The position numbers were made by a program, and so were the translations under genes. Positions 19,854 through 56,645 of a stretch of 64,000 bases of DNA are shown piece by piece (position 1 is the first letter of the stretch; every line of letters begins with the position of its first letter). A model generated the notes under the pieces. It was not told the DNA's origin and ran no database searches. It saw nothing but the letters and a program-made list of their open reading frames with translations. The stretch is from Actinomycetes bacterium (GTDB lineage: Bacteria > Actinomycetota > Acidimicrobiia > Acidimicrobiales > SZUA-35), in NCBI GenBank assembly GCA_024280015.1, contig JAJRQY010000064.1, positions 29,254-93,253 on the forward strand. Reading direction: 5' to 3'.

Positions 19854-21121
19854 GCCCCCGTTTGTAAGGGTGAGGGCGGCTGTGAGGGCGGCTGTGAGGG
19901 AGACGGCGAGGGTGGAATCGGCTGAACCTGTGTCGATGCCCACGATGGAGCCGCAACTGGCTGTGATGGCTGTGCCGACTGTGCCTGTGGCACCTGTGCT
20001 GGCTGTGCTACCTGTGCTGGCTGTGCTGGCTGTGCTACCTGTGCTGGCTGTGCTACCTGAGCGTGGTTGCCGGCAGATACGTCATCAGAAGCATCAGTGG
20101 CGACCGGAGCAGGGACTTGCTGCAGGACTTCGGCAATCACCTGTTCTGGTTTCACTCCACGGACCCACTGGTCAGGCAAGAGGAGGATGCGATGGGCAAG
20201 GACGGGGATGGCTAAGGCCTTGACATCGTCTGGCAACACAAATGTCCGACCAGCCATCGCAGCCCTCGCTCGGGTGGCCTTCAGCAACCCGAGCGAGCCA
20301 CGGGGACTTGCTCCGGCAATCGTGCGAGTACTAGCACGAGTAGCTTCAACCAGCGCGACGATATAGCGGGCTACCGGCTCACTGACATGGACCATCTCCA
20401 CCAGCTTCTGGAGTTGAACAACCTGCTCAGAAGTGAGAACCTGATCCAGAGCTAAGCGCTCGGTTTGACGTTCTGCCCGCTTCAGGATCAGGAACACTTC
20501 ATCCTCGGTGGACGGATAGCCAATCCCGGTCCGAACCAGGAAACGATCCATCTGGGCTTCGGGCAACGGATAGGTGCCTTCAGATTCAATCGGGTTTTGG
20601 GTTCCAATTACCATGAACGGCTTCGGCAATGGGCGCGTCTCACCATCCACTGTGACCTGTCGTTCTTCCATGGCCTCTAACAGGGCCGACTGGGTCTTTG
20701 GTGGAGCCCGGTTGATCTCATCGCCAAGGACAAGGTTGGCGAAAATGGGGCCTGGCTTGAACTCGACCCCACCTTGGGTGTTGCCGCCGGTGAACACCGC
20801 AGCCCCGGTGATGTCGGCGGGAATCAGGTCAGGAGTGAACTGGATTCGAGAGAATCCCAAACCTGATGCTTCCGCCAAGGCCCGAGCCGTTGCCGTCTTG
20901 GCCACTCCAGGAACATCTTCCAAGAGCACGTGGCCGTCAGCCAGCAACGCAGTGACGATGAGTTCCATCGTCTGACGTTTGCCGACAATGGCCCGTTCCA
21001 TCTGGTTGACCAGGCGTTCGCTCGCAGTTTGAACATCAGCAATCGAAGGGGCGCTGGTCGCGGTACTGCTGGCAGCGGTACTGCTGACTGCTTGATTGCT
21101 CGTCGTGTCGTTGTCTATCAA
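19850..21121 (-). CDS. MoxR-family AAA+ ATPase with a repetitive Ala/Gln/Pro C-terminal tail
   Basis: AAA_3 core is VLLEDVPGVAKT...DEINRAPPKTQSALLEAMEERQVT. The tail is AQVAQPAQVAQPAQPAQVAQPAQVPQAQ... Confidence 0.9.
   Translation of the reverse strand: MIDNDTTSNQAVSSTAASSTATSAPSIADVQTASERLVNQMERAIVGKRQTMELIVTALLADGHVLLEDVPGVAKTATARALAEASGLGFSRIQFTPDLIPADITGAAVFTGGNTQGGVEFKPGPIFANLVLGDEINRAPPKTQSALLEAMEERQVTVDGETRPLPKPFMVIGTQNPIESEGTYPLPEAQMDRFLVRTGIGYPSTEDEVFLILKRAERQTERLALDQVLTSEQVVQLQKLVEMVHVSEPVARYIVALVEATRASTRTIAGASPRGSLGLLKATRARAAMAGRTFVLPDDVKALAIPVLAHRILLLPDQWVRGVKPEQVIAEVLQQVPAPVATDASDDVSAGNHAQVAQPAQVAQPAQPAQVAQPAQVPQAQSAQPSQPVAAPSWASTQVQPIPPSPSPSQPPSQPPSPLQTGA
19958..20058. repeat. 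9-bp-period tandem repeat inside the moxR 3' region
   Basis: Units CTGTGCTGG / CTGTGCTAC iterate about 11 times on the plus strand and encode (AQP/AQV)n on the minus strand. A second array of a 12-bp unit, about 2.6 copies, lies at 19870..19900 (PSQP repeats). Confidence 0.85.
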
Positions 21122-25153: not shown

Positions 25154-27535
25154 TTAATGCAAGTCAGACTTGGTAAAGGTCGGCTCTTGCTCACGACGCC
25201 GAGCACTCTTCCCCGTCAGGTATTGACGCGGCCACTCAAGACCTTCATAGCCTTGGTCCAACGCCGCGTTCATCGTCCAATAGGGGTCGATGAGGTGGGG
25301 GCGGGCCAAGGCGCAGAGGTCGGCTCGACCGGCAACCAGGATGGTGTTCACGTCATCAACACTGGCGACACCACCAACGGTCATGGTCGGGATCCCAGCT
25401 TCCAAACGGATACGTTCGGCGAACGGAACTTGATAGAGGCGGCCGTACTCGGGATCGCTGGCTGGATCGGTCTGACCAGTGGAAACGTCGATCAGGTCGG
25501 CTCCAGCCTTGTGCAAGCCACGGGCGATTTCTAGTGCATCCTTCTCATCGTTTCCACCTTCGATCCAGTCAGAGGCCGAGATGCGCACAAACACCGGACG
25601 ATTCGACGGCCAGGCCTTGCGAACGGCCTCAATGACCCGAATGGGGAACCGGAGTCGGTTCTCCATTGAGCCTCCAAAATCATCAGTTCGTTTATTTGTT
25701 ATCGGGCTTAAGAAGCAAGCAAGTAAGTAGCCATGGGCGGCATGGACTTCGACCAGGTCAAAGCCAGCAACGACGGCTCGTTCGGTGGCGGCCACATAGT
25801 CGCCAACAACCTGATCCATCTGTTCCACCGTCATCTCTTGTGGAGTCTGACTTCCCTCGGCATAGGGAATGGGGGAAGCTGAGATCAAGGGCCAATTCTT
25901 GGTAGCTCCATCGCTGCCCGGCCCATCGCTGCCTGGTCCATCGCTGCCTGGTCCATCAACAAGTGGTTCGTCATCAAGCGGTTCGTCCATGCCTTCCCAA
26001 GCAACCTTGGTTGAACCTTTCCGGCCAGCATGGCCAAGCTGGAGCCCAATCTTGGACTGGGTCTCACCATGAACAAAATCGACGATGCCCTTCCAGGCGG
26101 CGGCCTGCTCGTCATTCCAAATTCCCGCACAACCCGGCGTGATTCGAGCATCTCGACTGATGGCCGCCATTTCCGTCATGACCAGTCCGGCTCCACCAAC
26201 CGCCCTACTTCCAAGATGGACTTCGTGCCAACGATCGGGCATGCCTTCGGTGGCGCAGTATTGCGACATGGCGGAGACGACCACTCGATTGGGTAGCCGG
26301 AGGCCACCAATTTCATAGGGGTGGAACATGGGCGGAGTCTTCGCATCAGCGGGACGAGTTGACTCGGGCTGGTGCTCCCACCAATCAGCAAGAACCGCGT
26401 CAATGAAGCCTTGATCGCGCATTGCCAGGTTGTCATAGGTGACTCGTAGCGAGCGAGTCATCATGGAGAAGTTGAACTGGTGTGCGGATAGGCCCCAACG
26501 CAAACCAACATCCTCGAACCATCGCTGACTGGTTACAGCCGAACGCTGCAATGAGTCGGCTCCCGGACGCCGCTCCGCCTCATAGCGAGCCAACGCCGAG
26601 GCAATATCATCTTCATGCTCAACCGCACTGGCCAGAGCAACCGCATCCTCCAAGGCAAGTTTGGTTCCCGAACCAATGGAGTAGTGGGCGGTGTGGACAG
26701 CGTCACCGATAAGGACCACATTGTCGAAAGACCAATTCTTGTTGCTGACGCCGGGAAACGCCCGCCAAACCGAACCGTTTGGAATCAAGGGATAGCCATC
26801 AAGATGGTCGGCGAAAAGAGCTTCACAAGTGCTGACGGCAAGATCATCGGTCTCACCCGGGGCGAACTTCTGGTCGGCGGTGGCATCAAGACCAAGGCCG
26901 CGCCAGGTATCGCCATCCATCTCGACAATAAAGGTGCAGAGCTCATCGTCGTATGGATAGACGTGGGCTTGCACAATTCCGTGCGGTGTCTCCTCGAAGA
27001 GGAAGGTAAAGCGGTCGAACTTCTGCTTGGTTCCGAGCCAGACAAAGCGCGTATCTGATACCGGCATAGTCAGTTGGAATTCATCAGCCCACGTATCCCG
27101 GACCAAGCTGCTGAGTCCGTCGCAACCAATGACGAGGTCGGCATCACGGTACGCATTGGGATCACCGATCTCGGTGAGGTAGCGAATCTCTACTCCAAGC
27201 TCAAGGGCTCGCTTACCCAAAATCTGGAGCAGGCGAAGACGAGACAAGGCGGCAAATCCATGACCGTCGCTGGTGATGGTTTGGCCCTTGGCCACGGTGT
27301 CCATCTGGGTCCAGTAGCGCATCTCGGCTTCAATGGCGGCGATCGAGACTGGATCGCCGTCGGCGAAGTTAGCCAGCGTCTCATCGGAGAAGACCACGCC
27401 GAAACCCCAGGTGAAGTCGGGTCCGCTTCGCTCAGTAACCCGAACCTGGCACGTTGGATCAGCCAGCTTTAGCAAGATGGCGGTGAACAACCCTCCGGGC
27501 CCACCACCCAAACACTCAACACGCATCCCCTTCAT
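25154..27535 (-). CDS. Bifunctional FAD-monooxygenase / Old-Yellow-Enzyme reductase (salicylyl-CoA 5-hydroxylase or 2-aminobenzoyl-CoA monooxygenase/reductase type)
   Basis: The N-terminal half is a FAD monooxygenase (CLGGGPGGLF..., GDAVHTAHYSIGSGTKLA). The C-terminal half is an OYE/NADH:flavin oxidoreductase (LPNRVVVSAMSQY..., VEVHAAHGYLL). The start is uncertain (ATG 27535 or 27526). Confidence 0.85.
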   Translation of the reverse strand: MKGMRVECLGGGPGGLFTAILLKLADPTCQVRVTERSGPDFTWGFGVVFSDETLANFADGDPVSIAAIEAEMRYWTQMDTVAKGQTITSDGHGFAALSRLRLLQILGKRALELGVEIRYLTEIGDPNAYRDADLVIGCDGLSSLVRDTWADEFQLTMPVSDTRFVWLGTKQKFDRFTFLFEETPHGIVQAHVYPYDDELCTFIVEMDGDTWRGLGLDATADQKFAPGETDDLAVSTCEALFADHLDGYPLIPNGSVWRAFPGVSNKNWSFDNVVLIGDAVHTAHYSIGSGTKLALEDAVALASAVEHEDDIASALARYEAERRPGADSLQRSAVTSQRWFEDVGLRWGLSAHQFNFSMMTRSLRVTYDNLAMRDQGFIDAVLADWWEHQPESTRPADAKTPPMFHPYEIGGLRLPNRVVVSAMSQYCATEGMPDRWHEVHLGSRAVGGAGLVMTEMAAISRDARITPGCAGIWNDEQAAAWKGIVDFVHGETQSKIGLQLGHAGRKGSTKVAWEGMDEPLDDEPLVDGPGSDGPGSDGPGSDGATKNWPLISASPIPYAEGSQTPQEMTVEQMDQVVGDYVAATERAVVAGFDLVEVHAAHGYLLACFLSPITNKRTDDFGGSMENRLRFPIRVIEAVRKAWPSNRPVFVRISASDWIEGGNDEKDALEIARGLHKAGADLIDVSTGQTDPASDPEYGRLYQVPFAERIRLEAGIPTMTVGGVASVDDVNTILVAGRADLCALARPHLIDPYWTMNAALDQGYEGLEWPRQYLTGKSARRREQEPTFTKSDLH
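25907..25957. repeat. 15-bp tandem repeat x3.4 inside the OYE half (encodes GPGSD x3)
   Basis: TCCATCGCTGCCYGG units. An adjacent imperfect 15-bp pair lies at 25961..25990 (DEPL repeats). Confidence 0.9.
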
Positions 27536-28586: not shown

Positions 28587-28667
28587 CCAGCTGAACGATT
28601 GCCAGCTGAACGATTGCCAGCTGAACGATTGCCAGCTGGACGATTGCCAGCTGGACGATTGCCAGCG
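28587..28667. repeat. 15-bp tandem repeat x5.4 in the paaX-hpaB-like spacer
   Basis: CCAGCTGAACGATTG occurs 3 times, then CCAGCTGGACGATTG 2 times, then a partial unit. The array starts 13 nt after the paaX stop and ends 32 nt before the ATG at 28699. Confidence 0.95.
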
Positions 28668-30223: not shown

Positions 30224-30271
30224 GCTCAAATCTCGACAGGCTCAAATCTCGACAGGCTCAAATCTCGACAG
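30224..30271. repeat. 16-bp perfect tandem repeat x3 at the convergent hpaB-like/phzF junction
   Basis: GCTCAAATCTCGACAG occurs 3 times. The third copy encodes the last four codons and the stop of the minus-strand phzF-like gene. Confidence 0.95.
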
Positions 30272-33042: not shown

Positions 33043-34185
33043 CTACAAGCCGGGCGCATCATAGTAAGCGGCGCCGCCACCCTGATCCATCAGGTCATCA
33101 AACCAGTTTCCGTCATAGACATCGTTCGGACCCTGCAACAAGTCTGGGGCCTCTCCCGGTGTGGAGGTGGCAAACGTCCAAGCTTGACGCTTGTAGGTCC
33201 AATTCTCTGGATGCAGGTGGTGGGCCTCTTGCCACCATCTCACCGCTGCGGCCACGGCTTGGTTGTCATCACTCTTGAGTGAAGCACCTTTGAGTGAAGC
33301 ACCTTTGGCTACACCCTCAGAAGCGGCCCGAGTCCAATGCCATTGGCCGAGCTCGAAACAGGCCGTCGCTCGGGCATGGTCCATGGGCAGTGGTCGTGAC
33401 CTCGCAACAACCTCGTCTGCCGATAGGCAGAACTCGCTCTCACTCCCCTTGTCAACCCAGTCATGAATAGCGGCCAGGTAGCCCTCGGGGTTGCCCTGGA
33501 ACTTGCCAATCTCGGTGAAGACCTCCTTGATCCGGTCGGGAAGATCATCCGGAAGTGACCCACCTTTTGGCCGGGGTTCGATCGAAGCCAGCTCAGCAGG
33601 GCGAACCAGCTGGCCTTCCTCGTCAATCCAGACTGCCATTGGCACATTGGTGAAACCAAAGAGCTCATCACTGATATGGCGAGTGTCAATCAGAGACGGA
33701 TGCGTGGGCTCAGCTAGCTCAATCCAAGGCATGGCGTCATCCCGCTCAACATCAAGAGCAACCGTCACCACAGTCAGCCCCTTGGACTCAAGCTCGGTGT
33801 GTAGTGCTTGCCACACGGGCAAGCTGTTGCGACAACCTCACCAGCTGGCCCAAGCCACAAGCAAGACCTTGCGGCCATGCAGACTGGACAGCTTGAACAG
33901 GTTGCCGTCGGCATCTTCAAGCTCAAGTTCGGCCGCGGTGGCCGAAGCCAATGCTCGGCCGCCGCTGCTTGGCCCAAGGGCCCAGATCGAGGCGTCCTCG
34001 TCGCGGATCAGTGGCATTTGCAACCGTTCGGCCACCACAGCCAGATCGAGGTCACCGGCCGCGGTGCTGGCCCCATCAGGCAAGGGCACACACTGATCGG
34101 CTCGACACATACCTTCAGGTTTGATCTCCCACCCCGTGCGGGCAGCGAAAGAGAGTGGGTCGATAGTTAAGGATTCAACAATCAC
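33043..34185 (-). CDS. ResA/TlpA-like thioredoxin-fold protein with an in-frame TGA at the redox-Cys position (candidate selenoprotein, alternatively a pseudogene)
   Basis: ORFs 33838..34185 and 33043..33822 share one frame and are separated only by TGA 33838..33840. Read-through gives GRKVLLVAWASW-U-GCRNSLPVWQALHTELESKGLTVVTVALD, which matches the FWASWCxPC(R/K)xE(L/M)P block of TlpA/ResA. A hairpin lies at 33806..33824, downstream on the mRNA. Confidence 0.55.
33275..33304. repeat. 15-bp perfect tandem duplication inside the thioredoxin-fold gene (GASLK x2)
   Basis: TTGAGTGAAGCACCT occurs 2 times. Confidence 0.9.
33806..33824 (-). promoter_or_regulatory. bSECIS-like stem-loop downstream of the in-frame UGA
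   Basis: The RNA reads 5'-GCUUGCC-CGUGU-GGCAAGC-3', a 7-bp perfect stem with a 5-nt loop. The stem starts 13 nt after the UGA. The loop starts 20 nt after it and has G at loop position 2. Confidence 0.45.
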
Positions 34186-34265: not shown

Positions 34266-35771
34266 GTGCTGCCGATGCTGTACCCAATGGACATATCGCC
34301 TTGGTTCCTGGTTGCCAGCCTGAGTGGTCTGGCTTGCGCGTCACTTTCTCTAGCAGTAATCGTCGCAGGGTGGGTGCGTCGCGTCGCCGAAGTCGCCATT
34401 CTTGGCAGTGGATTGTTCTCCCTTTCCATCTTTGCTGCCGCGTTTGGGCTCAGCGTCACTGATCTTGGCGGTGGCTCACCGGCTAGCCCAATGCTGGCGT
34501 ACTTGGCCTTACCATCGGCGGTTTTCACCGCCTTTCCTCTCCTTTCACCAACGACAGTCACCGCACGTTTCATCGGTCAGCACTGGCGATCCTGGGTTGC
34601 GTTTTGCGCTGCTACCAATATCGCCGGAGTCGTCCTACTCATTGGGAATACCGCCCCAGTCGGAATAGTGACCAAGACGGTGCTCCTGACCATTGGCATC
34701 CTCGGCAGTTTGAAGCTGGCCAACCGCCAGGTTTACCTCTACAGAATCAGTGGTCGTACAACAGCCCTAGCCACTGCCGCGGCCGTTGCGTCGCTCACCC
34801 TCTCCACCTCGATGGGGCCAGCGGTTCAGCCTGGCAGTGTCTGGTCCTGGATAGTCCTGGCCGCCGAAAACGCCGCCGTCCTCTCAGCCGGAGGGGCCAT
34901 CATCTATGGCTACCGTACCGGGCAGAGTGTTGCTGACATTCTCGGACCAATGCTGTCCAACGAACCGCTTGCGGCCCTGGAACTTGGCCTAAGCCCAGAG
35001 GTCCACAGCTTTGTCGCTGCGCTGGAACAGAAGGACCAGGTCACTCGAGATCATGTTGTTCGGACATCGGCGCTAGCTATGCGGGTCGCCATCCGAGCCG
35101 AATTGAAACCAACCGAGGTACGCGAGATTGCCCTCGGGGCTTTGCTACACGACATTGGCAAGCTCATCGTTCCCAGCAGCATCATCAACAAGCCTGACCG
35201 CTTGACCGATGAGGAGTTCGCCACCATCCAAACCCACCCCGAACAAGGTGAGCGGTTACTCGAGGGATCGGTGGTACTCGCCCCCGCCGCTCGCTTCGTA
35301 CGAGGCCACCACGAACGGGTCGATGGCAAGGGCTATCCCGATGGCTTGAAGGGGGATGAGCTTTCATTGGAAGTGGCCATCGTCAGTGTTTGCGATGCCT
35401 GGGATGCCATGACCCACACCCGCCAGTACCGCCAAGGTATGGGAAGCGAGCGAGCGACGGAGATTCTCCAAAGGGGCGCAGGCAGCCAGTGGCGGGCAGA
35501 TGCCGTACTACTTGTTCTCGCCGAGATATCGAGCAATGGTCAGTCCGATCTGGAAGCAGCTGGTCCAATTGGCCGCCACAATCTGGTCGACATGCAATGC
35601 CAGCTAACGGAACAAACCCTGGCCAACCAAACGCTGGCTGAGCAAACACTGGCAGAGGAAGCGCTGAGTTGCTGTGTTCCGGAGATCGCTTCTCAGGAAA
35701 CAGCCCGCACTAAGTCAATGGCCCGGCCAAGTGTGTCCAATCGATCAGACAAGGTGTCCCCGGCCGGATAG
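34266..35771 (+). CDS. Membrane-bound HD-GYP domain phosphodiesterase
   Basis: About 7 N-terminal TM helices precede HDIGKLIVPSSIINKPDRLTDEEF...HPEQG...GHHERVDGKGYPDGL (HD and GYP motifs). The start is uncertain (GTG 34266, ATG 34275 or ATG 34287). Confidence 0.8.
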   Translation: MLPMLYPMDISPWFLVASLSGLACASLSLAVIVAGWVRRVAEVAILGSGLFSLSIFAAAFGLSVTDLGGGSPASPMLAYLALPSAVFTAFPLLSPTTVTARFIGQHWRSWVAFCAATNIAGVVLLIGNTAPVGIVTKTVLLTIGILGSLKLANRQVYLYRISGRTTALATAAAVASLTLSTSMGPAVQPGSVWSWIVLAAENAAVLSAGGAIIYGYRTGQSVADILGPMLSNEPLAALELGLSPEVHSFVAALEQKDQVTRDHVVRTSALAMRVAIRAELKPTEVREIALGALLHDIGKLIVPSSIINKPDRLTDEEFATIQTHPEQGERLLEGSVVLAPAARFVRGHHERVDGKGYPDGLKGDELSLEVAIVSVCDAWDAMTHTRQYRQGMGSERATEILQRGAGSQWRADAVLLVLAEISSNGQSDLEAAGPIGRHNLVDMQCQLTEQTLANQTLAEQTLAEEALSCCVPEIASQETARTKSMARPSVSNRSDKVSPAG

Positions 35772-40051: not shown

Positions 40052-40161
40052 CCGACTGGCTACTGGCTGTCATTTGACTGGCAATTGACTAGCTGTTGAC
40101 TGGCAATTGACTAGCTGTTGACTGGCAATTGACTAGCTGTTGACTGGGGAGCGACTGGGCG
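40052..40161. promoter_or_regulatory. Array of 11-bp-phased TTGACT boxes (22-bp unit x3 plus degenerate flanks) in the divergent promoter spacer
   Basis: Exact TTGACT occurs at 40074, 40085, 40096, 40107, 40118, 40129 and 40140. Degenerate boxes are CCGACT at 40052 and GCGACT at 40151. The unit is TTGACTGGCAATTGACTAGCTG. Confidence 0.6.
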
Positions 40162-41203: not shown

Positions 41204-44090
41204 CGACACAGCCGACCAAACAGTCAAGCTCATCGTCAACGGTAAACGGGTCGAAGTAGACGTCGAGCCAATGACTCGGCTCAGCCAGGTACTGCGAACC
41301 GAGCTTGGTCTGACCGGGACCAAGGTTGGTTGCGATGCCGGAGACTGCGGCGCCTGCACAGTTCTGATCGATGGTGAGCCGCTTTGCTCGTGTCTAGCAC
41401 CCATTGGCCGCCTCAGCGGAAGCAAGGTGGAGACCGTCGAATCTCTTTCGGAGAGCGAAGCCGGGCGAGTGCTACAAAACTCATTCCTCAGCAACGCTGG
41501 CACCCAATGCGGATTCTGCACCCCGGGCGTACTGATGGCAAGCACCGCACTACTCGCCAACAATCCGAGTCCCACCACCCAAGAGATTGAGGCAGGGTTG
41601 GGTGGCGTCTTGTGTCGCTGCACCGGCTATCGCCAGATCATTGACAGCGTTGCCGCCGCAGCCCAGGCGGCCCAATCCGGTTCTATCGATGTTGAAGAAC
41701 CGACGACGGGCAAGGCAGTCGGTGTCTCAATCGGTCGAGTTGATGGTCGTCAGAAACTGTCGGGCCAGGACATCTTTGGCGACGATGGAGCACCAGATGG
41801 CGCCTTGGAAGTCCGGGCAATCCGATCGCCCCATCACCGCGCAAGTTTCACCCTCGGAGACCTTGACGCCTACATCAGTTCCAGTCCAGGAATCGTCGCC
41901 ATTCTGACAGCGTCAGACATCCCCGGTATCAATCAGTTTGGCGTCATTCCCCCAATGGCTGACCAGCCAGTGTTTGCGGAAACCGAAACCCGGTTCATGG
42001 GCGAGGCAATCGCTGCGGTCATAGTTAAGCCACAAACTGAACCACAAACCGGGCCACCATCTGGGCTCGGTACCCGAGTAGATCTGTCCGGATTCCCCGT
42101 CACTTGGACCGAGCTGGAACCGGTAATGGACCCGACCGAGGCTCAGACCCCGGATGCTCCCCTTCTGCATGCCGATCGGCCCGATCGGGCCAACAATGTG
42201 ATGGCCCGGCGCCTCGTATCCCGAGGTGACCTCGCAGCGGCGATGTCGGCCGCAGTAGTGACTACCAGTGGCGAGTTCCGAACCTCCTTCGTTGAACATG
42301 CCTACATCGAAACCGAGTCCGGCTGGGCCGAGGTCAGTGACGGACCTGGCAGCTACATCGTCTCCATCCATGTGACGACCCAAGCACCGTTCTCAGACCG
42401 CAATGACACCGCCGCCATTCTTGGCGTTGATCCCGAACGTGTCATCATTCGGCCAACAGCTTGCGGTGGTGGCTTCGGCGGCAAGCTGGACATGTCGGTA
42501 CAGCCAATCCTGGCTTTAGCCGCAATCAAGGTTGGTGTGCCGGTTCGCATGACCTATGACCGGGCCGAGTCCATTGTGTCAACAACCAAACGCCATCCGG
42601 CCATCATGACCGCAACTCTTGGTGCCGATGCCAGTGGCTCGTTCACTGGCTATCAATTCGATGGCACTTTCAACACTGGTGCCTACGCCTCATGGGGTCC
42701 AACGGTGGCAACCCGTGTTCCCCTTCACGCTGGCGGACCCTATACCTATGACGCCTATCAGGCTCGCAGCGTGGCCGTCCACACCAATGGCCCTCCGGCT
42801 GGGGCTTTCCGTGGCTTCGGAGTTCCCCAGGCCGCCATCGTGCAAGAAACATTGGTTGACATCCTCGCAGAGCAACTGGATCTTGATCCTCTGGAGATTC
42901 GTCTGACTAATGCCCTTGGCGCCAATCAACCGACGGTGACTGGCCAGACATTCGCCTCTGGCATGGGCTTCGCCGAGTGCCTGGAAGCCCTTCGTGAACC
43001 CTACGAGAAGGCCAAGGAACGAGCCGCTCTGTTCAACACAGCCCAATCCAACACAGCCCAATCCAACACAGCCCAGTCCAACACAGCCCAGTCCAACACA
43101 GGAACGGCAACCTCGATCCGTCGGGCCGGCGTTGGCATCGCCGGAGCCTGGTACGGCTGTGGCAATACTGCCTTGCCCAACCCATCGCAGATGAAGGTCG
43201 GACTCGATCCCGATGGTCGAATTCGGCTTCATCAGGGGGCCGTCGACATTGGCCAGGGTGCCAACACGGTCATGAGCCAGATCTGCGCCGATGGCCTTGG
43301 GGTGCCTCTGTCCAAGGTCCATCTGGTTTCGGCCGATACTGACCACACGCCGAACGCAGGCAAGACATCGGCGTCACGCCAAACCTTCATCACCGGCAAC
43401 GCCACCTACCTGGCTGCTCAGGCCTTGCGGGCCGAGATTTTGGCCCTGGCTGGCTTGGCGTCGGACCCAGAAATCGATTCCAATACCACAATCGATCTAG
43501 ATGGTTCGGACCTCTCTGTCCTTACCCGATCCGACCGCGTGATCGTTGACCTCACAACCCTCAAACTCGACAACGATGGCTACGTTGCCGCTGGCTTCGG
43601 AACCTATGATCCACCAACCAAAGAACTGGATGACCAAGGCCAGGGCGAGCCATACGCTGTCTACGGATTTGGGGCCCAGATGGTTGAGCTTGAAGTCGAC
43701 ATGGAAACCGGGATTGTCAGCCTCCTGTCGGTTGAGGCGGTCTACGACGTTGGCCGGGCCATCAACCCAGCCCTGGTTCGGGGGCAGATCACCGGAGGCG
43801 TCGCCCAAGGAATCGGCCTGGCTCTGATGGAGGAATACATCCCCGGCGCCACCAACAACCTGCATGACTATCTGATTCCGACCATCGGCGATGTTCCTGA
43901 AGTACGGGTCACCCTGGTCGAGTCCGGCGACCCACTCGGACCCTACGGGGCGAAGGGTGTCGGCGAGCACTCCTTACTGCCGACGGCCCCAGCCATTCTC
44001 AACGCCCTGCGTCAAGCAATTGGCACCCCGGTGCGTCACATTCCTGCCACCCCAGATCGACTCTTGGCCATCATCGAGGGCCGATCATGA
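41184..44090 (+). CDS. Fused [2Fe-2S] + molybdopterin-binding hydroxylase subunit (xanthine dehydrogenase / aldehyde oxidase family)
   Basis: The N-terminal ferredoxin-type clusters are [12 protein letters not shown] and QCGFCTPG...LCRCTGY. A roughly 800-aa Moco domain follows (GGGFGGK, GFGVPQ, AKGVGE). Confidence 0.9.
43035..43101. repeat. 15-bp tandem repeat x4.4 inside the Moco domain (NTAQS x4)
   Basis: AACACAGCCCARTCC units. Confidence 0.95.
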
Positions 44091-47309: not shown

Positions 47310-47315
47310 CGAAAT

Positions 47316-47393
47316 CGTGCTACCTCAAACCGTGCTACCTCAAACCGTGCTACCTCAAACCGTACTATCTCAAACCGTGCTACCTCAAACCGT
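47316..47393. repeat. 15-bp tandem repeat x5.2 at the convergent marR / AA_synth junction
   Basis: CGTGCTACCTCAAAC units (the 4th copy is CGTACTATCTCAAAC). The 5th copy contains the stop and the last three codons of the minus-strand gene. Confidence 0.95.
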
Positions 47394-48059: not shown

Positions 48060-48119
48060 GCAAGGTCGACTGGTGCAAGGTCGACTGGTGCAAGGTCGAC
48101 TGGTGCGAGGTTGACTATG
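48060..48119. repeat. 15-bp tandem repeat x4 in the divergent AA_synth / pncA promoter spacer
   Basis: GCAAGGTCGACTGGT occurs 3 times, followed by the degenerate copy GCGAGGTTGACTATG. Confidence 0.95.
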
Positions 48120-48806: not shown

Positions 48807-50489
48807 TCATGGGGCACCGGGATTCTCGGGTTCGCATTGGATCGATGCTTGCGTCTCGCACTGTTCTCCTTGGCCACGGATCCCGCGACCACCTGAATTC
48901 ACATTGACTGGGGGTGGGTCATCTGTTGCCTCGTCTTCTGGAGAACCCTGGTTGGGCTGTTGACGATCAGGATGGGCCTCATTGCGAGTGAAATGAACCG
49001 ACCAGGGATCGTACGATTCACCCAGTGGGTGGGTGTAGGTCCCTTCGGGTGGAGCATCAGGAACGGGATGTGCCCTCTGGATATCGCGGCCACCCTTGGC
49101 AATGAAACGCAGACCATCGCCACTGGAAGTCTGTAGCCCGAACGGTGTCTCCGGATTGCCCACAATGGAAAAAGCGTGGCGGTGATGCTCACGATGATGC
49201 CGGCGACACAAGGTCACCAGATTGTCGGTGTCGGTGAGGCCGCCCTTGACCCAATGCTTCATGTGATGAACGTCCAGCCAGCGCTGGGCTGCGCATCCGG
49301 GAAAGCGACAGCCATTGTCTCGGTTGAGGATGATCTCCCTCAGCCACGAAGGCACTGCCGCTTGTGTCAAACCTAAGGACACAGGCTTGCCAAACTTCGT
49401 CAACAGCAGCTGGACTGAACTCTCACACGACAGCAGGTCCATAACGTCGGTGGTGAGCACTGGGCCGAGATGCAAGTTGGGGCGCAAGCCCTGAGCCCAT
49501 GACGAAAGTTCGCTGGCCTCCAAATGGATGAGCACTCGGTTGTCGGCGCCACGAGAACCAGATGGGTCGGCCTCGACTCCGGCGCGAATCATGGTGAGGA
49601 ACGAGTCAAACCCGCTGACGTCAGTTTCACCGGTGTCGGCCTTCAATCGAGCACGCGCCTGATCGAGTGCAGCGACAATCTCGGCTCCGTCATCGGCACC
49701 ACAACGCATCCACATCCGGAAGTTCCCATCATCATCAAAGCCGTAGCCAAACCCGCGGTAGGGCTTGTCCAACTCTTCTTGGACGAAACCATCAGGCATG
49801 TCTGAGGGGCAGCAGTTGTCAGGAAGCGAGTCGGGAAGGGACAAGCCATCGGATCCATCTGCGTGGTCAGGATTGTTGGAGGAATCCGAAGAGGGCTCAG
49901 CACCGGGATCGCTAGTCGAATCGTCATCGGAGTTGTCCGAAGGATCGGGATCGGGATCGGGATCGGGATCGGGATCAAGGAAGCAATAGTCACGCATGAT
50001 GCGGCGAAGTTGCGGGATCGTGGCATGGACGGCGAGGGCGGAAACCGTCTGGTCATAGTCGACCGGACAGTGGCGGGCGATAAGAGTCATTTGGTCGATA
50101 CTGAGCTGACCGTCGGAGAATCGGTCAAAGGCAAAGGGCAACTCGCAACGACGCTCGGCGATGCGAACCAGGCGACCAGAATGCTGCCGGGTAAGCCCAA
50201 GTTGCCATTCGACCCAGTGGAAAATGGAGTTGATCCCCGAGACACACCACTCGCCCGAGCCAATGACATCGGCGATCATGTTGACAACAGCGTGATCGGC
50301 CAAGTTGCGTGAGCCGGCCAAGGATGCGACCAGGTGTTCCGGAGCAACAAGCTCGTCTTCGGTGCGGCAACGCTCCCCTGGCACCTCCGAGACAGTCCGG
50401 ACATCAGCGGTCGAAGAGCTGGCCACCGTGGAGGCCGAATCAGGTGAGGACTGCTGCCCTTCCATCAGTGTATCGAACATATGTACCAT
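48807..50489 (-). CDS. DUF222 + HNH endonuclease domain protein (actinobacterial 13E12-repeat type)
   Basis: The C-terminal HNH motif is CRFPGCAAQRWLDVHHMKHWVKGGLTDTDNLVTLCRRHHREHH. The N-terminal part is DUF222-like, with a central DPDPDPDPDP low-complexity stretch. Confidence 0.85.
   Translation of the reverse strand: MVHMFDTLMEGQQSSPDSASTVASSSTADVRTVSEVPGERCRTEDELVAPEHLVASLAGSRNLADHAVVNMIADVIGSGEWCVSGINSIFHWVEWQLGLTRQHSGRLVRIAERRCELPFAFDRFSDGQLSIDQMTLIARHCPVDYDQTVSALAVHATIPQLRRIMRDYCFLDPDPDPDPDPDPSDNSDDDSTSDPGAEPSSDSSNNPDHADGSDGLSLPDSLPDNCCPSDMPDGFVQEELDKPYRGFGYGFDDDGNFRMWMRCGADDGAEIVAALDQARARLKADTGETDVSGFDSFLTMIRAGVEADPSGSRGADNRVLIHLEASELSSWAQGLRPNLHLGPVLTTDVMDLLSCESSVQLLLTKFGKPVSLGLTQAAVPSWLREIILNRDNGCRFPGCAAQRWLDVHHMKHWVKGGLTDTDNLVTLCRRHHREHHRHAFSIVGNPETPFGLQTSSGDGLRFIAKGGRDIQRAHPVPDAPPEGTYTHPLGESYDPWSVHFTRNEAHPDRQQPNQGSPEDEATDDPPPVNVNSGGRGIRGQGEQCETQASIQCEPENPGAP
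49942..49976. repeat. 6-bp microsatellite (GGATCG)x5.8 inside the HNH gene
   Basis: It encodes (DP)n on the minus strand. Confidence 0.95.
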
Positions 50490-53249: not shown

Positions 53250-55262
53250 CTAGCGACGAAGTAGGCGACGTAGGACCGCCTGGCCAACAAATGTTCCGAA
53301 GCCAATAATCGCCAGGGACCCGTAGCTGGTTCCCCCCGCCTTCATCATGTCGAGCCGCCGACCTTGCTCGACGTCCTCAGACTCTGCAGACTGACCGACA
53401 GCGAGACGAGAAGCGTAGGGCCACGGAGCATTCCGTACCGGAACCGAACGCTCACGCTCGGCCGCCAAAAGGGTTTGGAGCTGAACAAAGACCGAAGAAT
53501 GGTTAGGACTGTTCCACAAATTCACCGCCTCGATCGGATCCATGGTCAGGTCATAGAGCTCCCACTGATCATCAAGGGCCTCCGTTCGATACGCCATCTT
53601 CTTCGACCCAGTATCACTGAGGTGTCGTACATGCGGCTTGGTCCAAGTTGCAGGGTCATCGAAGCACCGGACCAACTTCCACAAATGGCCAGCTTGGCCA
53701 CCAGGCTCGGTCGGATGGCCAGAGTCGACCAGACCGACAGAACCAGCTGGTCCACTGGGGCCAGCAATTCGGGCGACGATGCCTTCAAAGTTGGACCCAA
53801 CGTTTGCTGGCACTCGGATGCGGAGGGGCAGCGGAGGGTTGTCCGTCTGACCCAACCGGCGAGCAGCAGCCGAAGCGCCACTGTCACCTTCCAGAATATT
53901 GTCCCGGGTCAGCAGGTAGACCGAACGATGAAGGTCAGCCGGGTCAACGCCATCGACCACCGGCATCAGGTCGCGACCCGGCAAGGTGTGCACCTCCGAG
54001 AAACTCTTCTTCAACACGGCCGCTGTTTCCGCCTGATCAATTCCAGCTGCCGCCAACAGGGTTGGCACAATATCGACATGGGAGGTCGGCGCATCTTCAA
54101 TCACGCGGCCAGCGGTGGCCACCCCACCACGCATTCGGGCAATGGAGAACGGAACTCGGGTGGCCTCGTCATAGAGATTGAACCACTTCTGATGTAGTCC
54201 ACCGTGGGCACCAAGGAGGTCACCGTGATCGGAGGTGCGAACAAGGACCGCTTCTTGGGAACCGCCACTGGTGACCGCTCGACGAACCTGATCAATTGGG
54301 CCATCGACCTCGGCGTGTAGCCGGTAGTACAGGTCCCGGTATTCCTGGGAGCGCTTCTGATAGGCCCGCCTAATCAGAGGTGCGGGGCCATAGGCCGTTG
54401 GGTAGGAATCCCGGTACGCCGCCTGGGCCGCCGGTTTCGTGGACAGGTCCTCATCCGCGGTCGGAGCTTGAGCAATCGGCGGTGACCAAGGGCCATGCGG
54501 CTCATCGCTCGCGGATCGGTCTTCGAAGGGCAGGCCGCGCCGGGCCCAGAGTGGCCACAGCACAATGTCGTGCGGATTGACAAAGCTGGCAACCAGCAAG
54601 AATGGTTTGGCTGCAACCCTGTCTCCCGCACGTCGCCGGGCATAGCGATCCTCAAGCCAGGACACCACCCTGGCCGCAATCAACGGATCCCGACGGAATC
54701 CGCTATTGGCCAGTGGTGCACCGTGGGGCTCAGGACCAACCCAGCCGGAGAACCCGAAGGGCTCCAGAGGATTGGCTTCCAAATAGGTACCAACCGCAGC
54801 CTGGTCAACAACTCCACGAGCATCGTTGGTGGCTAGCGGCCCTCCAGTTTCCGGATTGATCAGATCGGCATGGGAGACATGCCATTTTCCGTCGTAGTGG
54901 GTGTCGTATCCAGCGGCCCGAAACCAGTTGCCCAGGGTTGGGACCTCACCTTCGGGAAGCCAGCGCAGGCGAGAGTCATCGGGCATCTTGCCCAGGCCAT
55001 CGGTCTGGGTGACCCCATGCAGATCCGGGTAGTGCCCGGTAAGGATTGTTGGCCGACTAGGTACGCAGGCCAACGAACCGGTGTAGTGGCGCTTGAAGTT
55101 TGTCGCGTTGGTGTCAAACCAGGCGGCCCCCGCCAGCGAACGACGACGCCAGTCTGCCAGTTCGCCTGACTCATAGGAAGGAGCGGCGCGTTCCTCGTCA
55201 GTCATGATGATGATCACATCAGGACGAACACTTCCGACGGCAGCTTCGTTCAATTGGGCCAC
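53250..55262 (-). CDS. Sulfatase family protein (Cys-type, no signal peptide, C-terminal hydrophobic tail)
   Basis: The N-terminus is VIIIMTDEE and the formylglycine motif is CVPSRPTILTG. GTG start 55262 overlaps the upstream rdhA-like gene by 13 nt. The C-terminal segment is SLAIIGFGTFVGQAVL. Confidence 0.85.
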   Translation of the reverse strand: MAQLNEAAVGSVRPDVIIIMTDEERAAPSYESGELADWRRRSLAGAAWFDTNATNFKRHYTGSLACVPSRPTILTGHYPDLHGVTQTDGLGKMPDDSRLRWLPEGEVPTLGNWFRAAGYDTHYDGKWHVSHADLINPETGGPLATNDARGVVDQAAVGTYLEANPLEPFGFSGWVGPEPHGAPLANSGFRRDPLIAARVVSWLEDRYARRRAGDRVAAKPFLLVASFVNPHDIVLWPLWARRGLPFEDRSASDEPHGPWSPPIAQAPTADEDLSTKPAAQAAYRDSYPTAYGPAPLIRRAYQKRSQEYRDLYYRLHAEVDGPIDQVRRAVTSGGSQEAVLVRTSDHGDLLGAHGGLHQKWFNLYDEATRVPFSIARMRGGVATAGRVIEDAPTSHVDIVPTLLAAAGIDQAETAAVLKKSFSEVHTLPGRDLMPVVDGVDPADLHRSVYLLTRDNILEGDSGASAAARRLGQTDNPPLPLRIRVPANVGSNFEGIVARIAGPSGPAGSVGLVDSGHPTEPGGQAGHLWKLVRCFDDPATWTKPHVRHLSDTGSKKMAYRTEALDDQWELYDLTMDPIEAVNLWNSPNHSSVFVQLQTLLAAERERSVPVRNAPWPYASRLAVGQSAESEDVEQGRRLDMMKAGGTSYGSLAIIGFGTFVGQAVLRRLLRR

Positions 55263-56545
55263 CAGTCTCGTGATTTCAGGCGTTCCCCGGTTCCCAAACG
55301 ATCATGTATTCGCAAAGCAAGCGACCGCTGCCTTGTTCCAGCGAGTCGTCGCCACCATCGATTGATTGGCTTGGAGTAGTCACGGTTGTAGGGACAGACC
55401 CGGACACAGATGGCACAGTCGCTATTGATCTTTGACCAATAGCCAAAGCAGGATTCGCCGTTGACCGACCACTTGTTGACGTCCAACAAGTTGGACTTGT
55501 TGTGCTGCTTCCTCGTCGGTGGACCGAGCGGAATGGCGTTGGATGGGCAGGCATCGGCACAGCGGGTACAGGTGTCACAAAAGGAGCGCACACCAAAGTC
55601 GATTGGTCCATCATGGGCCAGCGGAAGATCGGTGAATATCTTCCCTACTCGGATTCGGGGGCCGAACTCGGGGGTGATGACCAAGCCATTTCGTCCGTAC
55701 TCCCCCAGCCCAGCCTTGATGGCATAGGGAATGCCAAGCGTGGTGTCGTTCATGGAAGGCACAGCCTGGTAACCCAGGTTCTTCAAGTACTGCGAGACGC
55801 CGAGCAAGACCATGGCATCGTGGGAGTACCCCAAGCCCGTTGCTGTGCCAGCTAAGGCCGACGGTGCGGTCCGGATCAGATCATGGTCCATTGACTGTCC
55901 GATGACGATCACATGCTTCAATGATTCATCCAACGGATTGGGTTTGCCCTTACCGGTGGTGGCGGAGAACCGCTCGGTGTAGGTCCAGCGATCGTCCCGG
56001 GCAGTCATGCCAACCAGATCAGCCCCAAAGGTCATCGCCACCTTCTTTACCGTCTGCGACGCTTCGTCGGGCGAGCCACAATCGACCTGCTCATCCGGAC
56101 CGTCCCGCAGCATGGAAAGCGGATCGAGAAAGCCGTCCCGCAGGTCTTGGTCTTGGTGCATCTCGGCGAAGAGGTCGGTGATATGCCAGGAAGCGTTGCG
56201 AAGGGCATAGTCGCGCTGGCGGAAGCCACGCGCCTTTCGCCACTTGTCCAAGGGCCGTCGATAGGTGGCATAGAAACGGTCAGAGTGTTCGCTCCGTACC
56301 TCCTCATCCCAAAACGAGCGACTGAACACGTCATTAACCTGGTTGAACCGGCGGAAGCCAGGACCGACTTCGAAGCCACAGTCGGCATCGGAGTCTCCGG
56401 GCAACACCCGAATGCCCCTACCCCGCGACGTTGCCTCCTTAGCCAAGCCCGCGTCGATTCCGGCTGCAGCCCGAATCTTCCGATTCACCTGGTCCTGGAG
56501 CTTTTCCCAATTTTGGGTGCTCAAGCTGGTCTTCATTCCCTGCAT
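55250..56545 (-). CDS. Reductive dehalogenase (RdhA)-like corrinoid/Fe-S protein, no Tat signal
   Basis: Two Fe-S motifs are CDTCTRCADACPSNA and C-x11-CAICVRVCPYN. The N-terminal blocks FRRFNQVNDVFSR and VKKVAMTFGADLVGM are typical of RdhA. The start is ATG 56545 or 56536. Confidence 0.7.
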   Translation of the reverse strand: MQGMKTSLSTQNWEKLQDQVNRKIRAAAGIDAGLAKEATSRGRGIRVLPGDSDADCGFEVGPGFRRFNQVNDVFSRSFWDEEVRSEHSDRFYATYRRPLDKWRKARGFRQRDYALRNASWHITDLFAEMHQDQDLRDGFLDPLSMLRDGPDEQVDCGSPDEASQTVKKVAMTFGADLVGMTARDDRWTYTERFSATTGKGKPNPLDESLKHVIVIGQSMDHDLIRTAPSALAGTATGLGYSHDAMVLLGVSQYLKNLGYQAVPSMNDTTLGIPYAIKAGLGEYGRNGLVITPEFGPRIRVGKIFTDLPLAHDGPIDFGVRSFCDTCTRCADACPSNAIPLGPPTRKQHNKSNLLDVNKWSVNGESCFGYWSKINSDCAICVRVCPYNRDYSKPINRWWRRLAGTRQRSLALRIHDRLGTGERLKSRDWWPN

Positions 56546-56645
56546 CCTTGCATGAAACAGCGCCGAGCATCGAACCAGTCGCCTCATCCCGATCGTCGAC
56601 CACCGACCGACCATCGAGTCACCTCGACCGTCCTGCCGTCACTTC

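What the first reader, a model, noticed from the sequence alone, without database searches (positions are those of the whole stretch)
33043..34185. In-frame TGA at the catalytic-Cys position of a ResA/TlpA-like thioredoxin-fold gene plus a bSECIS-like hairpin: candidate selenoprotein with a W-A-S-W-U-G-C centre
Seen: two minus-strand ORFs (33838..34185 and 33043..33822) share one frame and are separated only by TGA 33838..33840. Read-through gives ...LHGRKVLLVAWASW-[TGA]-GCRNSLPVWQALHTELESKGLTVVTVALD... Established: TlpA/ResA-type proteins have ...FWASWC-x-P-C-(R/K)-x-E-(L/M)-P... at this place. The TGA therefore sits exactly on the first redox Cys, and the C-R-x-x-L-P that follows is conserved. 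Seen: 13 nt after the UGA the mRNA can fold into GCUUGCC-CGUGU-GGCAAGC (33806..33824). Its apical loop begins 20 nt from the UGA and has G at loop position 2, which fits the known layout of bacterial SECIS elements (fdhF paradigm). The 259 codons after the TGA remain open and keep a thioredoxin-fold-like sequence. Oddity: U-G-C has one residue between the redox positions rather than the two of CxxC. This means either an unusual UxC/CxC-type centre or early gene decay.
Basis: partly seen in the sequence, partly recalled or inferred. Interest (0 to 1): 0.8.

Follow-up and report, generated by a model that had tools for sequence, protein, structure and literature searches.

The report
Known UGC selenoprotein gene, ResA-like
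The in-frame TGA is real and almost certainly encodes selenocysteine, but the gene belongs to a selenoprotein family that is already curated (NCBIfam NF041054, "ResA-like WAxxUGC motif-containing protein"), so this is a correct rediscovery and not a new kind of thing.

Summary
One minus-strand gene (34185..33043, 380 codons) is interrupted only by TGA 33838..33840 inside W-A-S-W-[TGA]-G-C-R, and a 7-bp hairpin follows at 33806..33824.

The selenoprotein interpretation is supported.
- The read-through protein scores 462 bits (cut-off 300) against NCBIfam NF041054, "ResA-like WAxxUGC motif-containing protein".
- Reviews list a Prx-like/TlpA-like UGC selenoprotein family, first tabulated in 2008.
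- The one-residue U-G-C spacing is family-wide: 63 of 65 full-length homologues carry C-G-C. It is not decay.
- I recovered 180 distinct homologous DNA segments from many phyla with TGA at this codon and an open frame after it.
- The hairpin is kept in 98% of them, with compensatory changes. Only 3 of 8 Cys-form genes keep it.
- The part after the TGA is under strong purifying selection (dN/dS 0.035-0.05).

What could not be shown: Sec machinery (selA/B/C/D) in this genome, because none lies in the window. The window's hairpin taken alone is not more stable than shuffled sequence.

The protein has three domains and looks cytoplasmic: an N-terminal C-x4-C domain with no solved relative, a ResA-like thioredoxin fold, and a C-terminal domain with a TPR motif. 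Its substrate is unknown.

Low novelty, low interest.

The parts
33043..34185 (-). Complete selenoprotein gene. GTG start at 34185, 115 codons, UGA (Sec116), 264 codons, TAG stop 33043..33045. The product is 380 aa.
   Evidence: NF041054 at 462 bits. Full-length alignment with Cys-form homologues, which start M-I-(L/V) at the same place. An in-frame TAG lies three codons upstream of the GTG.
33838..33840 (-). UGA codon 116, read as selenocysteine. It aligns with the first (nucleophilic) Cys of the CxxC of TlpA/ResA/DsbE proteins.
   Evidence: Identical in L001-L004.
33829..33852 (-). Redox motif W-A-S-W-U-G-C-R (aa 112-119).
   Evidence: In the model of the Cys-form homologue P0004 the corresponding motif lies at the N-terminal end of helix 116-134.
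33806..33824 (-). SECIS-type hairpin GCUUGCC-CGUGU-GGCAAGC, made by the codons for S-L-P-V-W-Q-A. The family consensus is a 6-bp stem and a 5-nt loop with an invariant G at loop position 2.
33946..34185 (-). N-terminal domain (aa 1-80) with the invariant motif G18-W19...C27-x4-C32. The Cys pair is encoded at 34090..34107.
   Evidence: The AF2 model has pLDDT above 90 for aa 1-70. No Pfam match, no PDB sequence match and no PDB fold match.
33595..33939 (-). ResA/TlpA-type thioredoxin-fold domain (aa 83-197). It includes H162-P163, D167, H170 and the N180-V-P182...W186-I-D-E-x-G motif.
   Evidence: Pfam AhpC-TSA and Redoxin. Foldseek finds ResA 1su9, TlpA 1jfu and DsbE-like 3gl3. phmmer against PDB sequences.
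33046..33588 (-). C-terminal helical domain (aa 200-380). It holds one TPR-like motif (A-x-A-C-F-E-L-G-Q...P-E-N-W-T-Y-K-R-Q-A-W) and the C-terminal Y-Y motif.
33259..33327 (-). Lineage-specific insertion (aa 287-309, AASEGVAKGASLKGASLKSDDNQ) between the two helices of the TPR motif. It contains a perfect 15-nt tandem duplication (33275..33307, KGASL twice).
   Evidence: One unit fewer in L004, and 19 aa absent in L001.

Best explanation
This is one intact gene for a selenocysteine-containing, ResA/TlpA-like thioredoxin-fold protein of the curated WAxxUGC family.

Shown by comparison:
- The UGA at codon 116 is not a stop.
- The frame stays open and under purifying selection for 264 more codons.
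- The UGA column is Cys in the non-selenium homologues.
- A 6-7 bp hairpin with a 5-nt loop, carrying an invariant G at loop position 2, sits 13 nt downstream. It is built from the codons for (S/D)-L-P-x-W-Q.

Inferred from the established bacterial mechanism (the fdhF paradigm): this hairpin recruits SelB-GTP-Sec-tRNA(Sec) to the ribosome, so that UGA is read as Sec.

Inferred from the fold and the alignment:
- Sec116 sits at the N-terminal end of helix alpha-1, where ResA/TlpA carry their attacking Cys. It acts as the nucleophile.
- Cys118, only one residue away because the Pro of C-G-P-C is deleted, resolves the intermediate as a selenenylsulfide.
- This gives a cytoplasmic thiol-disulfide (or peroxide/sulfenate) oxidoreductase.
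- The N-terminal domain, conserved across phyla with its C-x4-C pair, probably supplies a second redox pair or a partner site.
- The C-terminal domain with its TPR motif probably binds a partner.

The substrate is unknown.
For: Family membership. NF041054 gives E 1.4e-138 and 462 bits against a cut-off of 300. P0082 from Frankia is named this way by NCBI.

The CGC/UGC spacing is family-wide.

Sec forms are numerous.
About 115 of these hits are true homologues with 190-260 open codons after the TGA. They come from Acidobacteriota, Chloroflexota, Actinomycetota, Proteobacteria and others.
- 547 metagenome stretches were confirmed.
- Among the 150 best 50%-identity cluster representatives, 68 start just after the UGA and only 6 carry the intact Cys motif.

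The hairpin.
- All 5 core pairs are present in 97.8% of 180 Sec-form segments, against 3 of 8 Cys-form genes.
- The Leu codon in the stem is CTG or TTG in 176 of 179 cases, against 50% elsewhere in the same genes.
- Compensatory variants occur. UUGCC/GGCAA is the window's own variant, and CUCUCC/GGGAGG is another.
- Pair 18-34 shows CG 33, UA 13, GC 7.
- The covariation score is 0.249 against 0.121 in shuffles (0 of 500 reach it) and at most 0.091 for slid partners.

Selection. dN/dS after the TGA is 0.051 against L004 and 0.035 against L001.

TGA is the commonest ordinary stop in the window (24 of 37 long ORFs), so it is not globally reassigned.

Fold. The AF2 model has pLDDT 90.6. Its best PDB matches are ResA, TlpA and DsbE-like proteins. 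U aligns with the first Cys of CGPC.

Literature lists a UGC selenoprotein family: PMC2398784 Table 2, PMC9312934 and PMC13188914.
Against: - No tRNA-Sec and no selA/selB/selD were found in the window or in 1.39 Mb of flanks of homologous loci. The decoding machinery of this genome is therefore unverified.
- The window's hairpin alone is not more stable than shuffled sequence, and a competing fold exists.
- The hairpin overlaps a conserved peptide (L-P-x-W-Q), so part of its conservation is protein-level.
- The Cys-form DNA control is small (n = 8).
- The codon and covariation statistics are not corrected for phylogeny.
- No experimental evidence exists for any family member. Reviews list the family only as predicted.
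- The roles given to Cys118 and to the N- and C-terminal domains are inference.
Confidence: 0.88

Rival explanations
1. Pseudogene: a Cys codon (TGC/TGT) mutated to TGA, and the gene is decaying. The U-G-C spacing would then be a further lesion.
For: A single in-frame stop at a catalytic codon, and a 21-aa insertion with a tandem duplication in the C-terminal domain.
Against: - The TGA is conserved in 180 distinct homologous segments across phyla.
- dN/dS after the TGA is 0.035-0.05 at dS 0.33-1.6.
- Every residue that is invariant across the aligned homologues is also present in the window protein.
- The C-G-C spacing is the family norm.
- The insertion is in frame and lies in a loop of the TPR motif.
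Confidence: 0.02
2. Two separate genes: a 115-aa protein that ends at a true TGA stop, and a 259-aa protein that starts at TTG 33822, as automatic gene callers annotate the relatives.
For: Gene callers split the homologues this way: 115-aa plus 238/252-aa products in L001-L004. Many database entries start just after the UGA.
Against: - The split falls inside one thioredoxin fold, between strand beta-3 and the active-site helix.
- Cys-form homologues are single 344-368-aa chains that are colinear with both halves.
- The called start positions differ between relatives (252, 238 and 259 aa).
- The stretch that would carry the start codon is the conserved hairpin.
Confidence: 0.02
3. The UGA is recoded, but not as Sec. 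Cys could be inserted by a tRNA-Sec-like tRNA(Cys) with a SelB-like factor, or another residue by near-cognate read-through. The SECIS-like hairpin would still be used.
For: Sec machinery could not be shown for this genome. From my own knowledge, natural Sec-to-Cys recoding systems have been described in some bacteria. This was not checked here.
Against: Low prior. The family is listed as a selenoprotein family by NCBIfam and by reviews. TGA forms greatly outnumber Cys forms among near relatives, which is hard to explain if the product were the same Cys protein.
Confidence: 0.06
4. Sequencing or assembly error: the true codon is TGC or TGT.
For: It is a single-base difference from a Cys codon.
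Against: The same TGA occurs in four independent assemblies of close relatives and in more than 170 other loci.
Confidence: 0.01

Closest known systems
NCBIfam NF041054 WAxxUGC_long, 'ResA-like WAxxUGC motif-containing protein' (equivalog model)
   Same: Full-length match at 462 bits against a cut-off of 300. It has the defining W-A-x-x-U-G-C motif and the long three-domain architecture.
   Different: Nothing essential. The window member carries a 21-23-aa lineage-specific insertion with a KGASL duplication in the C-terminal domain, which splits the HMM match into two stretches.
[quoted passage not shown]
   Same: U-G-C motif, and Pfam PF00578 as the best Pfam hit. It is described as TlpA-like (cd02966), predicted only, and more abundant in non-marine samples. 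That fits the soil and freshwater MAG sources of the loci found here.
   Different: Identity with the published exemplars (MBL6689828.1, MDE0950781.1) was not tested by direct sequence comparison. The papers do not describe the N- and C-terminal domains or the SECIS consensus.
ResA / TlpA / CcmG (DsbE) thiol-disulfide oxidoreductases
   Same: The central domain has the same fold (Foldseek TMt about 0.75 over about 115 residues). The W-A-S-W-C context and the C-R-x-x-(L/F)-P that follows are shared. Sec aligns with the attacking Cys.
   Different: - U-G-C/C-G-C in place of C-x-x-C, a one-residue deletion.
- No membrane anchor or signal peptide (maximum Kyte-Doolittle value over 19 residues is 0.96), so probably cytoplasmic.
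- Extra N-terminal (C-x4-C) and C-terminal (TPR-motif) domains.
- No cytochrome c maturation or Sco genes nearby.
Escherichia coli fdhF-type bacterial SECIS
   Same: A hairpin inside the coding region immediately downstream of the UGA, with a small apical loop carrying a conserved G. It shows conservation and covariation in UGA-containing genes only. The SECIS features are as described in PMC1088965.
   Different: A short 6-7-bp stem without the bulged U of fdhF (my recollection of fdhF). Binding by SelB is untested. No Rfam model exists for it.
Other one-residue-spaced redox centres: bacilliredoxins BrxA/B (C-G-C), SELENOF/Sep15 (C-G-U), SelD (U/C-G-C-K). All three are recalled from my own knowledge and were not tested.
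   Same: Two chalcogen residues separated by a single Gly, in the first two cases in a thioredoxin-like fold. This suggests a strained, reactive (seleno)disulfide suited to exchange reactions.
   Different: No detectable sequence relationship was sought or found. In Sep15 the Sec is the second residue of the pair, not the first.

Membership tests
NCBIfam NF041054 (ResA-like WAxxUGC motif-containing protein) | Whole-protein HMM score at or above the curated cut-off (300 bits) | tested here: met
   462 bits, E 1.4e-138, with Cys substituted for the UGA.
NCBIfam NF041054 (ResA-like WAxxUGC motif-containing protein) | W-A-x-x-U-G-C motif with UGA (or Cys) at the U position | tested here: met
   W112-A-S-W-[TGA]-G-C118. 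The same column is Cys or TGA in homologues.
Bacterial selenoprotein gene | In-frame UGA aligned with Cys in homologues, with the frame open and conserved downstream | tested here: met
   dN/dS downstream is 0.035-0.05.
Bacterial selenoprotein gene | SECIS hairpin shortly after the UGA with a G in a small apical loop, conserved in UGA forms | tested here: met
   The stem lies at +17/18..+34/35 and the loop at +24..+28, with G25 invariant. 97.8% of Sec forms keep the core stem against 3 of 8 Cys forms. Covariation exceeds the shuffled and slid controls. The single-sequence stability is not significant.
Bacterial selenoprotein gene | selA, selB, selD and tRNA-Sec present in the same genome | not testable with these tools
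The rest of the genome is not available. The window's proteins are not on record.
Bacterial selenoprotein gene | Selenium found in the protein (75Se labelling or mass spectrometry) | not testable with these tools
   This needs an experiment. Reviews list the family as predicted only.
ResA/TlpA/CcmG thiol-disulfide oxidoreductases | TlpA-type thioredoxin fold | tested here: met
   Foldseek finds 1su9, 2h1g, 1jfu, 4txo and 3gl3 at E about 1e-9 to 1e-7 and TMt 0.55-0.78. phmmer against PDB sequences agrees.
ResA/TlpA/CcmG thiol-disulfide oxidoreductases | C-x-x-C active site | tested here: not met
   U-G-C here and C-G-C in Cys homologues. There is a one-residue gap relative to C-G-P-C of 3gl3.
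ResA/TlpA/CcmG thiol-disulfide oxidoreductases | N-terminal membrane anchor or signal peptide (extracytoplasmic location) | tested here: not met
   No hydrophobic segment (maximum 19-residue Kyte-Doolittle mean is 0.96). Scores against the ResA, TlpA and DsbE equivalog models are far below their cut-offs.
Peroxiredoxin (AhpC/TSA) | Pfam PF00578 above its gathering score, plus the P-x-x-x-T/S-x-x-C peroxidatic motif | tested here: not met
   PF00578 scores 40.5 bits against 26. The sequence before U116 is L109-V-A-W-A-S-W, with no Pro at -7 and no Thr/Ser at -3. The motif definition is from PMC13188914.
Glutathione peroxidase | Pfam PF00255 above its gathering score | tested here: not met
   25.3 bits against a cut-off of 27, and only the first 58 of 108 profile positions match. 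A-S-x-U-G resembles the GPx active-site string, but no N-Q-F motif follows (the GPx motif is from my own knowledge).
Published 'UGC-containing Prx-like / TlpA family' selenoprotein | Sequence identity with the published exemplars MBL6689828.1 / MDE0950781.1 | not tested
   Only the motif (UGC) and the domain assignment (PF00578, cd02966) agree. The exemplar sequences were not retrievable here.

The most novel reading that the evidence does not exclude
The family may not be a simple ResA analogue. It could be a cytoplasmic three-domain selenoenzyme. Its N-terminal domain has a confidently predicted fold with no solved or Pfam relative. That domain would bring a C-x4-C pair, conserved across phyla, next to the U-G-C centre. 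Together they would form a four-chalcogen site: an internal redox relay, or a site that binds a metal or selenium. The TPR-motif domain would select a partner. The family would then have a so far undescribed biochemical function, and it is predominantly Sec-dependent in soil and freshwater Acidobacteriota, Chloroflexota and Actinomycetota.
Probability: 0.2. Interest if true: 0.5.

Novelty: already known. Interest (0 to 1): 0.2.

Why it matters
For genome annotation, the locus should be one Sec-containing CDS. Automatic gene callers split its relatives into a 115-aa and a ~240-250-aa "hypothetical protein".

The presence of the gene also implies that this actinobacterial lineage, probably Acidimicrobiia, decodes UGA as Sec.

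Biologically the family is widespread. Near this member it is mostly in the Sec form. No member has ever been characterised. The SECIS consensus, the three-domain anatomy and the conserved N-terminal Cys pair described here give concrete handles for a first biochemical study.

None of this changes the fact that the kind of element is already catalogued.

Tried and rejected
- **Rfam.** Gathering thresholds on the whole window and permissive E-values on 33600..34000 gave nothing relevant; the only hits were chance ones at E about 9.
- **tRNA-Sec and SelD near the gene.** Neither found anything. The SelD negative is weak because of the probe.
- **Sec machinery in the window.** The 20 largest window ORFs were scanned against NCBIfam. 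None is SelA, SelB or SelD.
- **Source record.** Looking up the window's own contig through an exact protein match found nothing on record.
- **N-terminal domain.** Pfam, a profile search of PDB sequences and Foldseek against the PDB (best E 0.52) found no relative.
- **Cys-form DNA control.** The metagenome scan seeded with Cys forms returned mostly Sec forms. With four extra look-ups only 8 distinct Cys-form genes were obtained.
- **Peroxiredoxin and GPx membership.** Both were considered and rejected on motif and score.
- **Literature.** A search for 'WAxxUGC' found no paper.
Full report
**1. The observation**

The minus strand between 34185 and 33043 carries one reading frame of 381 codons. 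It has a single internal stop, TGA 33838..33840, and a terminal TAG. The translation reads ...KVLLVAWASW*GCRNSLPVWQALHTELESKGLTVVTVALD...

The GTG at 34185 is the first possible start, because an in-frame TAG lies three codons upstream. It matches the M-I-(L/V) start of homologues.

There are two corrections. First, 264 sense codons follow the TGA, not 259. Second, the hairpin of this one sequence is not more stable than chance: z = -0.39, and 64 of 200 shuffles fold as well. In a 60-nt context a competing fold is marginally better. The case for the hairpin therefore rests on comparison with other sequences.

**2. What the gene is**

With Cys in place of the stop, the protein matches NCBIfam NF041054, "ResA-like WAxxUGC motif-containing protein". 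This is an equivalog model. The E-value is 1.4e-138 and the score is 462 bits against a cut-off of 300.

Pfam sees AhpC-TSA and Redoxin over aa 83-194.

A search of 5.8 billion proteins gave 1551 homologues. The best 120 fall into two classes.
- 65 are full-length proteins of 328-368 aa. Of these, 63 read W-A-S-W-C-G-C-R.
- 55 are proteins of 226-252 aa that cover only the part after the stop. These are gene calls truncated at a TGA.

Against solved TlpA/DsbE-like proteins the motif aligns as WASWCG-CR against WASWCGPCR (3gl3). The UGA falls on the first, attacking Cys, and the Pro is deleted.

**3. The family is known**

[quoted passage not shown] It counts 46 selenoproteins and 855 Cys homologues, and finds the family more abundant in non-marine samples.
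- A 2022 review lists "UGC-containing Prx-like protein" (PMC9312934).
- I did not find any functional study. Only these three papers hold the term.
- That the literature family equals NF041054 is inferred from the motif and the domain assignment. It was not tested against the exemplar sequences.

**4. Evidence that the UGA is decoded**

(a) Close relatives. Four independent assemblies, whose products are 83-95% identical, have the same TGA and an identical hairpin, with synonymous differences around them.

(b) Selection. dN/dS for the 264 codons after the TGA is 0.051 against L004 (dS 0.33) and 0.035 against L001 (dS 1.6). This is as low as, or lower than, the value for the part before the TGA.

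(c) Breadth. About 115 hits are true homologues with 190-260 open codons after the TGA. They are MAGs of Acidobacteriota, Chloroflexota, Actinomycetota, Alpha-, Beta- and Deltaproteobacteria, Rokubacteria, Binatia and others.

(d) Sec forms dominate near this member. A metagenome scan seeded with Cys forms still returned mostly TGA forms. Among the 150 best 50%-identity cluster representatives, 68 start just after the UGA and only 6 carry the Cys motif.

(e) No global reassignment. TGA is the commonest ordinary stop in the window, used by 24 of 37 long ORFs.

**5. The SECIS element**

Positions are counted with the U of UGA as nt 1. The family consensus is a stem pairing 18-23 with 29-34 and a loop at 24-28. 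G25 is invariant. The window adds a seventh pair, G17-C35. The stem is made by the codons Leu-Pro on one side and Trp-Gln on the other.

- Of 180 distinct Sec-form segments, 97.8% keep all five core pairs and 87.8% keep six. Of 8 distinct Cys-form genes, only 3 keep them. Mean local MFE is -10.5 against -6.7 kcal/mol.
- The Leu codon in the stem is CTG or TTG in 176 of 179 cases. The same genes use those codons for only 50% of other leucines, and use CTC for 39%. The binomial p is 3e-48, but it is not corrected for phylogeny.
- Synonymous compensatory changes occur. UUG...CAA, the window's own variant, is found 9 times. CUG...CAG is found 142 times. Mismatching combinations are found 3 times.
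- On a 66-sequence alignment the covariation score is 0.249. Column shuffles give 0.121 (0 of 500 reach the observed value) and slid partners give at most 0.091. Pair 18-34 shows CG 33, UA 13, GC 7, UG 4.
- At the protein level, L-P-x-W-Q is present in 162 of 180 Sec forms. By my reading, only about a third of Cys-form proteins have it, the others reading L-A-G-W-R, L-S-G-W-R, L-R-L-W-Q and so on. This fits an RNA constraint on the peptide.
- Rfam has no model that matches.

**6. What could not be shown**

No tRNA-Sec, SelA, SelB or SelD is encoded in the window or next to any of the 210 related loci. The machinery is therefore unlinked to the gene, and its presence in this genome is untested. 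The window's source record could not be found.

**7. Anatomy and likely mechanism**

An AF2 model of the Cys-form homologue P0004 is confident (pLDDT 90.6, pTM 0.89). The C-G-C motif sits at the start of helix 116-134.

Foldseek matches only the central domain, to ResA, TlpA and DsbE-like structures.

The protein has no hydrophobic segment. Unlike ResA/TlpA, it is therefore probably cytoplasmic.

The N-terminal ~72 residues form a confidently predicted small alpha/beta domain. It has no Pfam match, no PDB sequence match and no PDB fold match. It carries a C-x4-C pair that is invariant in the aligned Cys-form homologues and recurs in Sec-form members from other phyla. In Acidobacteriota, for example, the motif reads KPQGVCRxxLCFPLP.

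The C-terminal domain is helical and contains one TPR motif, detected as TPR_2 in 11 of 14 members.

In the window this TPR motif is interrupted by a 21-23-aa insertion that contains a perfect 15-nt duplication (KGASL twice). Its length varies among the closest relatives.

My best reading has four parts.
- Sec116 is the attacking nucleophile.
- Cys118 resolves the intermediate as a selenenylsulfide.
- The N-terminal Cys pair may relay electrons or bind a partner.
- The TPR-motif domain may bind a partner.

Only the position of Sec in the fold is supported by data. The other three points are inference.

Gene neighbours give no clear functional lead. They are an SRPBCC/polyketide-cyclase-like gene, an F420-dependent LLM oxidoreductase, an HD-domain protein, PhyH, an aldo-keto reductase and a multicopper oxidase. 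They are partly conserved within the actinobacterial clade, including around a Cys-form gene.

**8. Rivals**

- Pseudogene, two separate genes, and sequencing error are each contradicted by sections 2 and 4.
- Recoding of the UGA to something other than Sec cannot be excluded without the genome or the protein. It has a low prior.

**9. Verdict**

The kind of element is already catalogued (NCBIfam, and selenoproteome surveys since 2008).

These are useful for annotation and for a first biochemical study, but they would not surprise a specialist.

Noticed in passing
window 28587-28666, 43034-43101, 47312-47393, 48060-48116, 25907-25957, 30224-30271, 40074-40147, 19994-20054, 33275-33307: The window holds many near-perfect short tandem repeats, mostly of period 15 (also 16, 22 and 27). 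Several lie inside ORFs, including the HpaB-like N-terminus, the Mo-hydroxylase large subunit and the target gene. Copy number of the one in the target gene differs between close relatives. This looks like a genome-wide tendency to in-frame 15-nt duplications.
   Followed up: partly
window 55253-56614 (-), 53253-55262 (-), 55023-55067 (+): One ORF matches the reductive dehalogenase family TIGR02486 above its cut-off (190.9 against 160 bits). It lies next to a sulfatase-like ORF. The only Rfam gathering-level hit in the window, the Mycobacterium sRNA Ms_AS-5, lies antisense inside the sulfatase ORF.
   Followed up: no
window 34266-35768 (+): An HD-domain protein lies divergently, 80 bp upstream of the target gene. 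Its best match is to the NosR-family c-di-GMP phosphodiesterase at 103 bits, below the cut-off. It has a hydrophobic N-terminal half and a LAEQT-type 15-nt repeat near its C-terminus (35613-35653). It is present in L004 and, as a shorter HD_5 gene, near the Cys-form locus L205. It is absent between the same neighbours in L001.
   Followed up: partly
window 48810-50489 (-): A 560-aa ORF has a weak match (31 bits, cut-off 175) restricted to the HNH region of the IscB model. It is probably an HNH-endonuclease-domain protein and not an IscB.
   Followed up: no
L036, L055, L070, L071, L075, L089, L102, L109 (Dehalococcoidia and others): A shorter subgroup of the Sec-form family has the motif F-(M/A)-W-A-S-W-U-G-C-R-(E/A/D)-Q-L-P-x-W-Q and about 190 codons after the UGA. 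Its C-terminus differs (…IRKQIWA(V/I)(E/Q)NP(D/E)(K/R)FY…). In some members the region upstream of the thioredoxin fold also differs. It may correspond to a separate, short NCBIfam model.
   Followed up: no
L008, L010, L057, L058, L040 and other Acidobacteriota/Proteobacteria loci: In these Sec-form homologues the open frame upstream of the UGA is 170-240 codons long, against 115 in the window. They may carry an N-terminal extension, possibly a signal peptide, that the actinobacterial members lack. Start codons were not mapped.
   Followed up: no
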